From Candidatus Heimdallarchaeota archaeon (lineage in GTDB: Archaea > Asgardarchaeota > Heimdallarchaeia > Heimdallarchaeales > Heimdallarchaeaceae), in assembly GCA_019057815.1 (NCBI GenBank), contig JAHLWR010000001.1, positions 192,001-256,000 on the forward strand: a stretch of 64,000 nucleotides of DNA, given 5' to 3'. The notes below the pieces were generated by a model. It saw only the letters and a program-made list of their open reading frames with translations. It was not told the DNA's origin and made no database searches. A program made the translations under genes and the position numbers. Shown in pieces: positions 43,599 to 46,745 of this stretch; positions within the stretch are counted from its first letter, which is position 1; each line of letters starts with the position of its first letter.

Positions 43599-46500
43599 CT
43601 ACAACCCTTTAGATGAAACGAAGTGAATAAAGTTCGTTTTTTCAGTGATAGGTTTATATTTTAAACCATCTCCAACGTAGAATTTGCTGAAGAATTCAAC
43701 CCATGTAAGTCTCAGAGCATTTAAGAAACTTAAGAGACCTTCAAGTGGTACAATAATCATCGACATCAATAAAACTGTTACCCACCATAAAACACTTAGT
43801 GGCTCTAATCCATCTATTAATCGTAAGGGTAGACCACTTAGAATTGCATGAACGAGTAATAAAGCCATTAATCGACTGAATGAAAGCGTGTTTGAAATTA
43901 ATGCGATTATGTGGTCTATACCATCGAGAATTCCATCTGTTTTTGCATGAAAATATTCAGATATGAACATAACAGGTAGCATGACAGCCATTATTATAAT
44001 AATAATGGTCATTACATTTGGGGGAATTTTGTGAACCCAAATACCTAGAGAATGAACTTCTAAACCTTCACCTACCATCATATTGTATAGTACACTGAAT
44101 ATACCAACATAGACTAAGGATAGGGAAGCGGGAGCAATTTTAGACGCGATACCATGACCAAATTTCATATTTTGAACAAATTTTAACAAAATTCCCAACT
44201 GAATTATTACAAAACCGACAACAATTGCGAATGTCAATAATAATTGAGTTTCGTGCATAGGGCTGATGAGAGGTATCCAATCCATCCCAATACCGTGGAA
44301 GAATTTTGGTATCAGCTCTTCATCACCAAAAAACGAACCAAAAAGCACACCCATGAAAGCTGAAGTTAAACCACAAATAATGAGCAATTCTGCTCCAGAA
44401 TAGAGATAGCCTAACATGGATTCATCAGGTTCGATTTTGTTTTTCTTTTTCTTATATAAGAGGAAACCACCGATTAAAGCTAGCATTAAACCATGACCCA
44501 AATCTGCGAACATCAATCCAAAGAGCAATGGAAAAGTATACTTGACTATTGAATAAGGGTCAACCTCGTTCAGATTTGGTTCTCCTATTCCTCCAACTAA
44601 ATCACGAATAACTCCCATAAACTTTCCTTGTTTTGTTATGGAAGGACTTATAAGAGGAACTTTTTCAGTGAAGGTAATCTTCATTTCAAATTTTGCCTCT
44701 TCATTAGCTTTTAAAATCTGGTCAATTTTATCTGCTGGAATCCATCCCCAGAGCGTAATTTCATCTTCCATAGTTTGGCAAGTTTCTTCTGTTCGGATTC
44801 TCTCAAGTTCTACCTCTATAATTTCGTTTACTGTAGCTAGTCTCTCGGATATAGAAGAGCATATTTCTTCAAGAGATTCATTAAGTTTTTCTTTTTCTGT
44901 GTTCAATTTTGCGATAGTTTCCTCAAGAGATTCATCAAGTTTCATTATTTCTGTATCAAATTCAATTTCCTGGAAAGAATACTCGCCCAACACCCTCAAA
45001 ACTGCAGGTTCATATTCCTTTAAAGATAAAACAAGAAGACGTTTCTCATTTCCTTTGGAATACTTTTGTTCTGAGAACCGAAACAAAATATTTCCATCAG
45101 TTACTTCCTTCAGGAAAAATTTTACTGCTTTGAACTGGCTTTTTGGTACTGTTCCTATTTTTGTTATTGTTTGAAAACCTTCTTCAAAAAGATCAATTTC
45201 TAAATCTTCTTTGTGAAATTGCGTTTCAAAAGTAAGAGAAAGATTCATTTGGTCTATTTTTTTCTGAATTTGGTTTCGTTCACTTGTAATAGATAAAATC
45301 TTTTCCTCGTTTTCCTGAAGGAAATTTTCAATGAAAGCTTTTGAGTGAATATATTGATCTACTAGTTTATATTTATTGGAAATTAGTGCTTCAGGAGTCT
45401 CAAATTGAGTTACATCTATAATTTTCTTTATCCTTGCTAGATATTGAGTAAGTTCCATCCTTTTCGAGTTGAGTTTTTCAATTCTCTCTTGATTTTGAGA
45501 ACCTATTTTAATTGGATGAACAGTATTTAATGATAAAAGAAGAGAAATGAACTGTCTTGAATATTCCTCAGAAGCTTCAAATTTCACAAATGAAGATTTT
45601 TTGGGGAACAATAATCCACCTTTTGCATGTAATCCTCTGTGAGATAAGGGAGTAATGCGTTTCACTCCAAGCTCAAGTTTTTTAGGAGTAATAATAGTTA
45701 ATTCGTCTCTTTCTTCACTTTTACTTTTTTTGTAATCAAAAGGAACCTCTGAGAGTTCATTCACATTAACTTCAAATGATAATAGTTTTAACTCCTCAAT
45801 AAAATCATTAAGCTGTTTCTTTCTTATCCATCCCCAGAGTGTAAGAGTTTTTTCGGAAGTTCTACCTTTTTCCTCCATTATTAAAAGATCATGAGCTACA
45901 TAAATAAGAGAAATTTTGTATAAGATTTTATCTTTTGATTTAGAGGTAATATTATCTAGTTCATTTTTTGCTTGCTCAAGATCTGTACCAACCCTACTAT
46001 AGAGCTTGTTGATACTCGCTGTTTTTGTAATTTTATCAATAGAATCAAAATCAGATAGATCTAATTTGGTAGTATCAAAATGATTCTCTTGAAGAACATC
46101 TTCTATCTGAGATTTGTAATCATTAAGAGAGACGCAAATAATAGCACGTCTTTCTGGATTATTTGTAGTTGTGCTCCAGAAAAAGAAATTATCTGCAGAT
46201 ATTTCTTTTATGTAGAAACGGATTAACTCTTCGTAAGAAGTGGGTATTTCACCAAGAAGTGTAAAAGTTCTAGAACCCGAAGATAACATATCAAGAGATA
46301 ACTCATTTTCTTCAACTTCTCCTTTAAATTTTGCTAATGCAGAAAGAATTCGTTCGTCCTTTAATAATTCTTGATATTTATCATATAATGAATTTATTTG
46401 ACTCTCCTTATTTTCTACAAGCGCTTTAATCTCAGAATCTAATTTGTTCAGATTGAAAAGAGTACTGTAATCTTCCTTTTCTAAAGTTGGAAGAGATGAA

Positions 46501-46745
46501 AAATCAAACCCCATTTTAAAACTCATTAGTCCTAATCGGTTATAACTCTCTTCGAGAGAGTCTTTTAATTGTTGTATCCTAGCCTGTTGTTTGGGAGATT
46601 GGGGGTCAACAATTTGTTGATTGAAAGATTCATTTCCATGAAGTTCTATTAATAGAGGAAGCGTATCATCTACTTTAGTCTGTACTTTAACAAGTATTTG
46701 AGGAGATGTAATAAGATTTTTAATCTTGTTCAAGCCTAGAACCAT
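43599..46745 (-). CDS. atpI: A/V-type ATPase subunit I (V0 a-like) with tandemly duplicated cytoplasmic domain
   Basis: EVDP...[28 protein letters not shown] (essential Arg), [19 protein letters not shown] occurs twice. Confidence 0.92.
   Translation of the reverse strand: [1048 protein letters not shown]

What the first reader, a model, noticed from the sequence alone, without database searches (positions are those of the whole stretch)
44650..46745. ATPase subunit I has a tandemly duplicated cytoplasmic stator domain (1048 aa)
Seen as paired motifs: [44 protein letters not shown]...VLQENHF/LSLKEY...VLGEYSF and TLWGWI/TLWGWI. Repeat 1 spans ~aa 10-335 and repeat 2 ~aa 380-700, ahead of one intact membrane domain. 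Established: prokaryotic subunit I is ~650 aa, and its single N-domain binds two peripheral stalks; eukaryotic V-ATPase has a third stalk held by the separate collar subunit C. Inference: the extra domain could anchor more stalks, as an analogue or precursor of the eukaryotic collar.
Basis: partly seen in the sequence, partly recalled or inferred. Interest (0 to 1): 0.75.

Follow-up and report, generated by a model that had tools for sequence, protein, structure and literature searches.

The report
ATP synthase stator subunit with doubled collar
In one family of Asgard archaea (Heimdallarchaeaceae), the membrane stator subunit of the rotary ATP synthase carries two copies in tandem of the cytoplasmic domain that normally holds the enzyme's side stalks; the arrangement is real, conserved and apparently undescribed, and it arose within that family, so it is not an ancestor of the eukaryotic V-ATPase collar.

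Summary
Observation confirmed. The ORF at 43599-46745 (-) encodes a 1048-aa A/V-ATPase subunit I. Its whole cytoplasmic N-domain is present twice (R1 aa ~16-335, R2 ~384-697), followed by one intact membrane domain.

- **Duplication:** BLASTP R1 vs R2 gives E 4e-17; profile-profile gives E 6.6e-54 over 342 columns.
- **Fold:** R1 has no Pfam or PDB sequence match, but its model (pLDDT 82) matches subunit I/a N-domains best (3rrk Z 10.3). Eukaryotic subunit C comes second (Z 6.8).
- **Distribution:** the long form occurs in 28 of 30 genomes of one family and in no other Asgard family scanned. Two closed genomes have it as their only subunit I, as does this genome.
- **Origin:** R1 and R2 are sister clades (100/99), and an older duplication is rejected (AU p 8e-5).
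- **Selection:** R1 is under purifying selection (dN/dS 0.135). It keeps the distal-lobe signature but has lost a conserved charged set at its proximal end.

Best reading: a family-specific duplication that enlarges the stator collar. R1 probably gives extra attachment for peripheral stalks, possibly a third one (inferred, untested). "Precursor of the eukaryotic collar" is not supported; "analogue" remains open. I found no published description. This scan had already noted the same stretch once (e1-5593166). New variant of a known kind.

The parts
43599..46745 (-). atpI: A/V-type ATPase subunit I (a), 1048 aa, with a doubled N-terminal domain. It is the only subunit I gene in this genome.
   Evidence: ORF. 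Pfam PF01496 scores 133.5 bits on aa 417-807 plus the C-terminus only. Single locus in G000.
45741..46700 (-). Repeat 1 (R1, aa 16-335): the extra, fast-diverged copy of the cytoplasmic hairpin/dumbbell domain.
   Evidence: No Pfam or PDB sequence hit. hhalign to R2 gives E 6.6e-54. AF2 pLDDT 82, pTM 0.73. Best folds are 3rrk (Z 10.3) and Stv1 6o7u (Z 9.8, rmsd 4.6 over 293 aa). dN/dS 0.135.
46572..46610 (-). R1-specific, nearly invariant motif VDPQSPK(E/Q)QARIQ (aa 46-58) in the proximal lobe. Candidate new interface.
   Evidence: Invariant or near-invariant columns V46 D47 P48 Q49 P51 E53 Q54 A55 I57 Q58. Aa 46-54 is the most conserved 9-mer of the whole N-terminal 720 aa.
45597..45740 (-). 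Linker between the repeats (aa 336-383): K/E-rich and predicted disordered.
   Evidence: pLDDT below 50 for aa 341-362 in the full model and 342-375 in the R1 model. Lowest conservation, 0.38 mean identity.
44655..45596 (-). Repeat 2 (R2, aa 384-697): the canonical N-terminal domain, joined to the membrane domain.
   Evidence: Matched by PF01496. The short stem of R2 (0.27) against R1's 1.16 identifies it as the conservative copy. Foldseek on the full model hits a subunits at E 1e-23.
43602..44585 (-). Membrane domain (aa 721-1048), about 8 helices, intact proton-path motifs.
   Evidence: Helices 730-1022 in the model. phmmer to human a4 gives E 1.5e-25, with [15 protein letters not shown] aligned to NTASYLRLWALSLAH and [26 protein letters not shown] conserved. 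Invariant in 32 homologues.
43872..43874 (-). Codon of Arg958, aligned with the conserved arginine of the subunit-a proton path.
   Evidence: Alignment. R958 is invariant. That this arginine is the essential one is established knowledge (Vph1 R735), recalled from memory.
42598..43596 (-). atpC (AC39 / eukaryotic d homologue), starting 2 nt after the atpI stop codon: an I-C operon.
   Evidence: PF01992 at 104 bits; coordinates. The I-C(-K) order is also found in sister families.
34452..34784 (+). atpK (c subunit), one hairpin, the only c gene in the genome. Same enzyme, about 9 kb away.
   Evidence: One PF00137 match at window 34596-34775; ORF.

Best explanation
Shown: an in-frame tandem duplication of the entire cytoplasmic N-terminal (collar) domain of A-type ATPase subunit I arose once, on the stem of one Asgard family that source records label Heimdallarchaeaceae. 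It has been kept since. The C-proximal copy (R2) stayed canonical and is joined to an intact proton-channel domain. The N-terminal copy (R1) diverged fast but kept the dumbbell fold (two alpha/beta lobes on a coiled coil) and is under purifying selection. In this genome the 1048-aa protein is the only subunit I, so the cell's only rotary ATPase must use it. Inferred: R1 hangs on a ~45-residue flexible linker from the proximal end of R2 and extends the stator collar around the central stalk. Its distal lobe, which keeps the residues conserved in all canonical N-domains, gives an additional seat for an E/H peripheral stalk, possibly at the third, normally vacant, position. Its remodelled proximal end carries a new family-specific interface. 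In effect R1 would be a covalently tethered functional analogue of eukaryotic subunit C, reached independently.
For: - Duplication.
- Fold of R1 is a-NT: Foldseek E 1.5e-11 to 8e-11; VIA Z 10.3, 9.9, 9.8 and 9.1 for the four top rows, all I/a subunits.
- Functional membrane domain.
- Only subunit I gene here and in two closed genomes of genus g4.
- One copy each of A, B, D, E, F and c.
- The long form is in 28/30 genomes and 4 genera of the family and in none of the other 32 families scanned.
- R1+R2 clade 100/99, with mirrored genus order. The alternative is rejected at p 8e-5.
- R1 dN/dS is 0.135, against 0.34 for R2. Per-element conservation of R1 is about equal to R2, and the best-conserved motif of the N-region lies in R1.
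- R1 keeps the canonical distal-lobe signature (G165, F177, E181, T183, L218, F223) and W304/W306. It has lost the conserved charged proximal set (R397, E641, E646, R649 equivalents).
- Background: the single N-domain of A-ATPases holds both stalks, each lobe one, while the eukaryotic third stalk sits on subunit C (PMC6131620, PMC10313074).
Against: No direct evidence that R1 touches any stalk. No complex could be modelled here, and the relative position of R1 and R2 in the single-chain model is not informative (low-confidence linker, pTM 0.56). There is only one E gene and one weak H candidate, so gene counts say nothing about stalk number. R1 has lost several charged residues conserved in every canonical N-domain, which could equally mean it no longer does the ancestral job. 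Eukaryotic a-NT domains also serve as regulatory hubs (PMC10313074), so a non-stator role is credible.
Confidence: 0.5

Rival explanations
1. R1 is a regulatory or partner-binding module rather than a stalk anchor. It would dock something else onto the ATPase, such as membrane lipids, an assembly factor or cytoskeleton, or act as an autoinhibitory brake. This would resemble the hub role of eukaryotic a-NT.
For: R1 lost the conserved charged residues of canonical N-domains and gained its own invariant motifs (VDPQSPKEQARIQ, EEKGRTT). Its stem branch is long, 1.16 against 0.27, as expected after a change of function. a-NT is a known regulatory hub (PMC10313074). atpI is divergently adjacent to the actin gene in three of four genera.
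Against: The distal-lobe signature shared by all stalk-holding N-domains is retained in R1. No partner candidate is encoded next to the gene. The actin synteny is absent in the largest genus and may be mere conserved gene order.
Confidence: 0.27
2. Subfunctionalisation: the enzyme still has two stalks, but each N-domain copy now holds one of them. Each copy kept one of the two ancestral binding sites.
For: R1 keeps distal-lobe residues but lost proximal ones. Both copies are under purifying selection.
Against: R2 keeps both the proximal and distal conserved residues of canonical domains (R2 columns). It therefore shows no sign of having given up a site.
Confidence: 0.12
3. R1 is the ancestor, or a relic of the ancestor, of eukaryotic V-ATPase subunit C: an old paralogue later split off in eukaryotes.
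For: Subunit C is the only other fold family hit by R1 (1u7l: Foldseek E 2.9e-6, VIA Z 6.8 over 256 aa). The organism is an Asgard archaeon with a eukaryote-like actin next door.
Against: The R1+R2 clade excludes all other Asgard N-domains (100/99), and an older duplication is rejected. The long form is absent from the other Heimdallarchaeia families. There is no PF03223 signal in the protein or the genome. The R1 profile finds no subunit-C-like or free-standing protein among 1.84 billion representatives. Published trees place eukaryotes beside Hodarchaeales or outside Heimdallarchaeia, not inside this family (PMC10656485, PMC12222021).
Confidence: 0.03
4. R1 is a decaying, functionless leftover of a duplication, or the long ORF is an assembly or annotation artefact.
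For: R1 is invisible to Pfam and to PDB sequence searches.
Against: dN/dS is 0.135. There are 23 invariant columns across four genera. The fold is confident. There are no stops in 27 of 28 orthologous frames (one draft contig has a single TAA), and two of the genomes are closed. The only apparent short form (P0077) is 96% identical to the start of a full-length gene and sits on a 2x-coverage contig.
Confidence: 0.02

Closest known systems
Canonical A/V-type ATPase subunit I / a (Pfam PF01496), e.g. Thermus thermophilus subunit I (6QUM/6R0Z chain N), the Meiothermus ruber I-NT crystal structure (3RRK), yeast Vph1/Stv1
   Same: It has the same membrane domain, with the conserved Arg and EG..F..ALRL.WVEF motifs. 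Each of the two repeats has the same N-domain fold. It has the same operon partner, AC39/d.
   Different: All described members have one N-domain (about 620-700 aa in prokaryotes, about 840 aa in eukaryotes). This one has two in tandem, joined by a disordered linker, and the outer copy is no longer recognisable by sequence.
Eukaryotic V-ATPase subunit C (Vma5p, PDB 1U7L; Pfam PF03223)
   Same: It is an additional collar element with two globular lobes on a coiled coil. It is the second-best fold family for R1. In V-ATPases it seats the third E/G stalk (PMC6131620), which is the role proposed here for R1.
   Different: It is a separate polypeptide that is reversibly released. It has no sequence relation to R1. 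R1 is nearer to a-NT (Z ~10 against 6.8). R1 arose inside one archaeal family.
Other internal duplications in rotary ATPases: doubled or tripled c subunits of A/V-ATPases, and E/G and b/b' stalk paralogues
   Same: A rotary-ATPase component is remodelled by duplication (background in bioRxiv 10.64898/2026.10.01.756066).
   Different: Those duplications affect the rotor ring or the stalks themselves. I found no described duplication of the collar domain of subunit I/a.

Membership tests
V_ATPase_I (PF01496), subunit I/a of A/V-type ATPases | Sequence match to the family model above the curated cut-off | tested here: met
   133.5 bits against a cut-off of 30.7, on aa 417-807 and the C-terminus. 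Also found in the genome search.
V_ATPase_I (PF01496), subunit I/a of A/V-type ATPases | C-terminal membrane domain with the conserved arginine and flanking motifs of the proton path | tested here: met
   R958 aligns with the Arg of NTASYLRLWALSLAH of human a4 and bovine a1, and the EGL..F..ALRL.WVEF..KFY motif is present. Invariant in 32 homologues. About 8 long helices at 730-1022.
V_ATPase_I (PF01496), subunit I/a of A/V-type ATPases | One cytoplasmic N-terminal hairpin domain with proximal and distal lobes | tested here: met
   R2 is the canonical domain. A second complete copy (R1) precedes it. This is what makes the protein a variant; it does not exclude it from the family.
V_ATPase_I (PF01496), subunit I/a of A/V-type ATPases | Encoded together with other A/V-ATPase subunits, with a full enzyme in the genome | tested here: met
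   AC39/C lies directly downstream. A, B, D, E, F and c are found once each elsewhere. The H candidate is only weak, E 0.25.
V_ATPase_I (PF01496), subunit I/a of A/V-type ATPases | N-domain binds the E/G(H) peripheral stalks | not testable with these tools
   No complex prediction or binding assay is available. Only indirect evidence exists: retention of distal-lobe residues in R1.
Eukaryotic V-ATPase subunit C (PF03223) | Sequence match to the family model | tested here: not met
   No PF03223 hit in the protein at E <= 0.01 or anywhere in the genome at E <= 1. The R1 profile finds no subunit C in PDB sequences or among 1.84 billion representatives.
Eukaryotic V-ATPase subunit C (PF03223) | Head-neck-foot fold | tested here: inconclusive
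   1u7l matches R1 (Foldseek E 2.9e-6, TM 0.22; VIA Z 6.8, rmsd 13 over 256 aa). It ranks below all a-NT hits, and Z under 8 may reflect a common arrangement.
Eukaryotic V-ATPase subunit C (PF03223) | Free-standing, dissociable subunit | tested here: not met
   R1 is covalently fused in every complete orthologue. The one apparent short form is a low-coverage chimera.

The most novel reading that the evidence does not exclude
The Heimdallarchaeaceae A-type ATP synthase has a closed or extended collar and three peripheral stalks. R1 would act as a covalently tethered counterpart of eukaryotic subunit C. That would be an independent, prokaryotic invention of the V-ATPase-style three-stalk stator. 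It would also be a living demonstration that a collar subunit can be made by duplicating the a-NT domain, the route that the shared fold suggests for subunit C itself.
Probability: 0.3. Interest if true: 0.8.

Novelty: new variant of a known kind. Interest (0 to 1): 0.55.

Why it matters
Stalk number and collar make-up are the main architectural differences between prokaryotic A-type (two stalks, collar made of subunit I alone) and eukaryotic V-type (three stalks, collar of a-NT + C + H) rotary ATPases. A prokaryotic enzyme whose sole subunit I carries a second, selected copy of the collar domain is a new stator design. It is directly testable by cryo-EM, cryo-ET or complex modelling.

If R1 seats a stalk, it would show convergent evolution of a three-stalk stator, in a close relative of the eukaryotic lineage. 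It would also give an experimental model for how an a-NT-like fold can become an accessory collar subunit. If R1 binds something else, it identifies a new regulatory handle on an archaeal ATP synthase.

For annotation: aa 1-380 of these proteins are currently invisible to Pfam, so the proteins are simply labelled '116 kDa subunit family' or 'hypothetical'.

Tried and rejected
- **Sequence searches with R1.** R1 alone and its 28-sequence profile against PDB sequences gave nothing relevant.
- **Free-standing R1.** The R1 profile against 1.84 billion representatives found only the long forms, fragments and ordinary I subunits. The one candidate, P0077 (322 aa), is 96% identical to aa 1-297 of the full-length P0035. 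It lies on a 2.3-kb, 2x-coverage contig that switches to a TPR gene, so it is a chimera.
- **Eukaryotic subunits.** PF03223 found nothing in the genome. V-ATPase_G models PF03179 and PF16999 found nothing. TIGR02926 gave only a weak hit (E 0.25) to a 102-aa coiled-coil ORF next to atpF.
- **ORFs beside atpE on contig 16.** The 355-aa and 197-aa ORFs are membrane proteins with no ATPase link.
- **Eukaryotic a or C sequences for a joint tree.** The protein collection returned only prokaryotic and metagenomic I subunits, so no tree with eukaryotes was built.
- **Two papers I tried to read.** Srinivasan et al. 2011 and Oot & Wilkens 2012, sought for statements on a-NT/subunit C likeness, are not held. 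That likeness rests here on my own fold searches.
- **Literature.** Six searches found no description of a doubled I/a N-domain. The library lacks most subscription journals, so this is not proof of absence.
- **R1-R2 packing.** It could not be read from the single-chain model: no PAE or coordinates are available and the linker is low-confidence.
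Full report
**What is there.** The ORF at window 43599..46745 on the minus strand encodes 1048 aa. Pfam's V_ATPase_I model (PF01496, 133.5 bits) covers only aa 417-807 and the C-terminus, and nothing matches aa 1-380.
- The gene 2 nt downstream (42598..43596, -) is the AC39/C subunit, the eukaryotic d homologue.
- The divergent upstream gene (47293..48429, +) is a eukaryote-like actin (448 bits). A Roadblock/LC7 gene lies nearby.
- This marks an Asgard archaeon. Homologues are labelled Heimdallarchaeota/Heimdallarchaeaceae by their sources.

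**The duplication is real.**
- BLASTP of aa 1-370 against 371-720 gives E 4e-17, with 23% identity over 235 residues.
- With family profiles cut from a 32-sequence alignment (A1), hhalign aligns aa 3-375 to 376-720 over 342 columns, with probability 100 and E 6.6e-54.
- The duplicated unit is therefore the complete cytoplasmic domain, including the short segment that normally leads into the membrane domain.
- The order of secondary-structure elements is the same in both halves.
- I call the copies R1 (aa ~16-335) and R2 (aa ~384-697). They are joined by a K/E-rich linker of low predicted order (aa ~336-383).

**Fold.**
- The full-length AF2 model is of moderate quality (pLDDT 69). By Foldseek it matches eukaryotic and Thermus a/I subunits (E down to 1e-23).
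- R1 modelled alone with a 28-sequence alignment (A2) is confident (pLDDT 82, pTM 0.73).
- Foldseek puts a/I N-domains first: 9brd_a at 1.5e-11, Stv1 6o7u_a at 1.9e-11, 3rrk at 7.9e-11 and Thermus 6r0z_N at 8.4e-11. Eukaryotic subunit C comes next (1u7l at 2.9e-6).
- An all-against-representatives alignment that does not depend on Foldseek gives the same order: 3rrk Z 10.3 (282 aa), 5gar_N 9.9, 6o7u_a 9.8 (rmsd 4.6 over 293 aa), 6vq6_a 9.1, and 1u7l Z 6.8.
- R1 therefore has the a-NT dumbbell fold. By sequence it hits nothing in the PDB, alone or as a profile.

**The membrane domain is intact.** Residues 721-1048 align with human a4 and bovine a1 (E 1.5e-25). [15 protein letters not shown] lies over NTASYLRLWALSLAH, and [26 protein letters not shown] is conserved. 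These residues, including R958, are invariant in the 32 homologues. That this arginine is the essential proton-path residue is established knowledge, recalled from memory.

**One enzyme, scattered genes.** G000 is 95% complete.
- It has a single subunit I locus.
- It has one A-B pair, with F and a weak 102-aa H candidate, on contig 12.
- E is on contig 16 and D on contig 41.
- A single-hairpin c subunit lies in the window at 34452..34784.
- No eukaryotic subunit C or G model matches.

The 1048-aa protein therefore has to be the stator of the cell's only rotary ATPase. The single-hairpin c subunit fits an ATP synthase rather than a V-type pump (inference).

**Distribution.** I scanned 400 genomes of the phylum with R1 as query.
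- Two matches inside one ~1043-1071-aa frame occur only in the window's own family: 28 of 30 genomes, genera g1, g2, g4 and g5. The two misses are 82-89% complete.
- A Pfam scan of the class shows frames of 684-732 aa in the three sister families of the same order, and 695-761 aa in two further families.
- Other Asgard families have 682-825-aa proteins with one N-domain.
- The two closed genomes of genus g4 carry only the long gene.
- Genera g5 and g2 additionally have an ordinary-length I gene. In the two g5 genomes examined it lies within a second, divergent A-B...I cluster.
- Among 1.84 billion representative proteins, the R1 profile finds only these long forms, their fragments and ordinary I subunits. 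It finds no subunit-C-like and no free-standing form.

**When it arose.** I built a maximum-likelihood tree (LG+C20 PMSF) of 11 R1, 11 R2 and 20 single N-domains from ten other Asgard families.
- R1+R2 form one side of a branch with support 100/99.
- R1 is monophyletic (100/100) and R2 is monophyletic (83/69), and both subtrees show the same genus order.
- The R1 stem is four times longer than the R2 stem (1.16 against 0.27).
- Forcing R2 to group with the single domains of the sister families, as an older duplication would require, costs 39.6 log-likelihood units and is rejected (AU p 7.9e-5).

So there was one duplication, after the family split from its sisters and before its genera diverged, followed by rapid change of the outer copy.

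**Selection and what changed.**
- Against the congeneric orthologue, dN/dS is 0.135 for R1, 0.34 for R2 and 0.31 for the membrane part.
- Conservation per structural element is similar in R1 and R2. The best-conserved 9-mer of the whole N-terminal 720 residues is R1's VDPQSPKQQ (aa 46-54).
- Of 59 columns conserved in all canonical Asgard N-domains, R1 keeps 34. These include the distal-lobe signature (G165, F177, E181, T183, L218, F223) and W304/W306.
- R1 has lost a set of conserved charged residues at the proximal end, the equivalents of R397, E641, E646 and R649.

R1 is thus neither decaying nor a plain copy. Its distal lobe looks ancestral and its proximal end is remodelled.

**How it probably works.** In A-type enzymes the collar is made by the N-domain of subunit I alone, and that domain holds both E/G stalks. 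In V-ATPases a third stalk sits on subunit C, and the a-NT lobes each hold one stalk (PMC6131620; PMC10313074). R1 is tethered by ~45 flexible residues to the proximal end of R2, so it can reach around the central stalk. My best reading (about 0.5) is that it extends the collar and adds stalk attachment through its distal lobe. A third stalk is the most interesting version of this (about 0.3).

Rivals:
- a partner-binding or regulatory module (0.27);
- division of the two ancestral stalk sites between the copies (0.12);
- a precursor of subunit C (0.03);
- a relic or artefact (0.02).

None of the mechanistic steps is shown. No tool here models complexes.

**Comparison and novelty.** The protein is a member of the subunit I/a family by every testable criterion. 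Its doubled N-domain makes it a variant.
- It works like, but is not, subunit C. It fails the sequence and free-subunit criteria, and R1's origin lies inside one archaeal family.
- Published phylogenies do not place eukaryotes inside that family (PMC10656485, PMC12222021).
- Six literature searches found no description of such a duplication. The library is incomplete, so this is 'not found', not 'absent'.
- The scan itself had noted the same stretch once before (e1-5593166).

I rate it a new variant of a known kind, with interest 0.55.

**Limits.**
- No eukaryotic sequences could be fetched for a joint tree.
- Family names rest on source labels.
- dN/dS comes from one pair of sequences.
- The tree is unrooted; the inference uses the R1+R2 split and the AU test.

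Noticed in passing
window 46746-48429; loci L012, L037, L038, L039: The eukaryote-like actin gene is divergently adjacent to atpI (a ~550-bp shared intergenic region here). The same holds in genera g1, g2 and g4 (91-99% identical actin within 1.5 kb upstream) but not in any g5 locus. It may be mere conserved gene order. It is worth a thought because eukaryotic V-ATPase subunits B and C bind actin (from memory).
   Followed up: partly
G000 contigs C12 (L006 5752-11325), C16 (L007 8600-9232), C41 (L008), C38 (window): The genes of the single A-type ATPase are scattered over at least four places: H?-F and A-B on C12, E alone on C16, D on C41, and K and I-C in the window. Sister families still keep an I-C-K cluster.
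   Followed up: partly
L064 (G032:C13:246000-265999) and L065 (G025:C23:7000-26999): Genus g5 (and g2) carries a second subunit I gene of ordinary length. In the two g5 genomes checked it lies in a second A/V-ATPase gene cluster: A 53%, B 50% and I 25% identical to G000's. That cluster is absent from g1 and from the closed g4 genomes. Its origin (old paralogue or transfer) was not examined.
   Followed up: partly
L043, L044 (family f14), L050, L056 (f13), L054 (f9): Some other Asgard families have 776-825-aa subunit I proteins. Their extra ~80-140 residues lie after the N-domain, in the membrane half (423-485 aa against ~345). This approaches the size of eukaryotic a subunits. Not examined further.
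   Followed up: no
L062 (ENA contig NODE_138159, 2346 bp, coverage 2.25): A 322-aa 'stand-alone R1' ORF (P0077) is 96% identical to aa 1-297 of a full-length 1043-aa gene. The contig then runs into a TPR gene on the other strand, so it is most likely a chimeric low-coverage contig.
   Followed up: yes
L006:6100-6408 (-) = G000:C12: A 102-aa coiled-coil ORF lies directly upstream of atpF. It is the only candidate for the H/G stalk subunit, and the match is weak (TIGR02926, E 0.25). Pfam G-subunit models find nothing in the genome.
   Followed up: partly
window 42154-42540 (+): A Roadblock/LC7 gene (PF03259, E 5.6e-9) lies convergent with, and next to, the atpI-atpC pair.
   Followed up: no
window 44638-45174 (+) and 47215-47607 (-): These are a 178-aa ORF antisense to atpI and a 130-aa ORF antisense to the start of the actin gene. 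The 130-aa ORF has no family match; the 178-aa ORF was not searched. Both lie inside well-supported genes and are most likely spurious.
   Followed up: no
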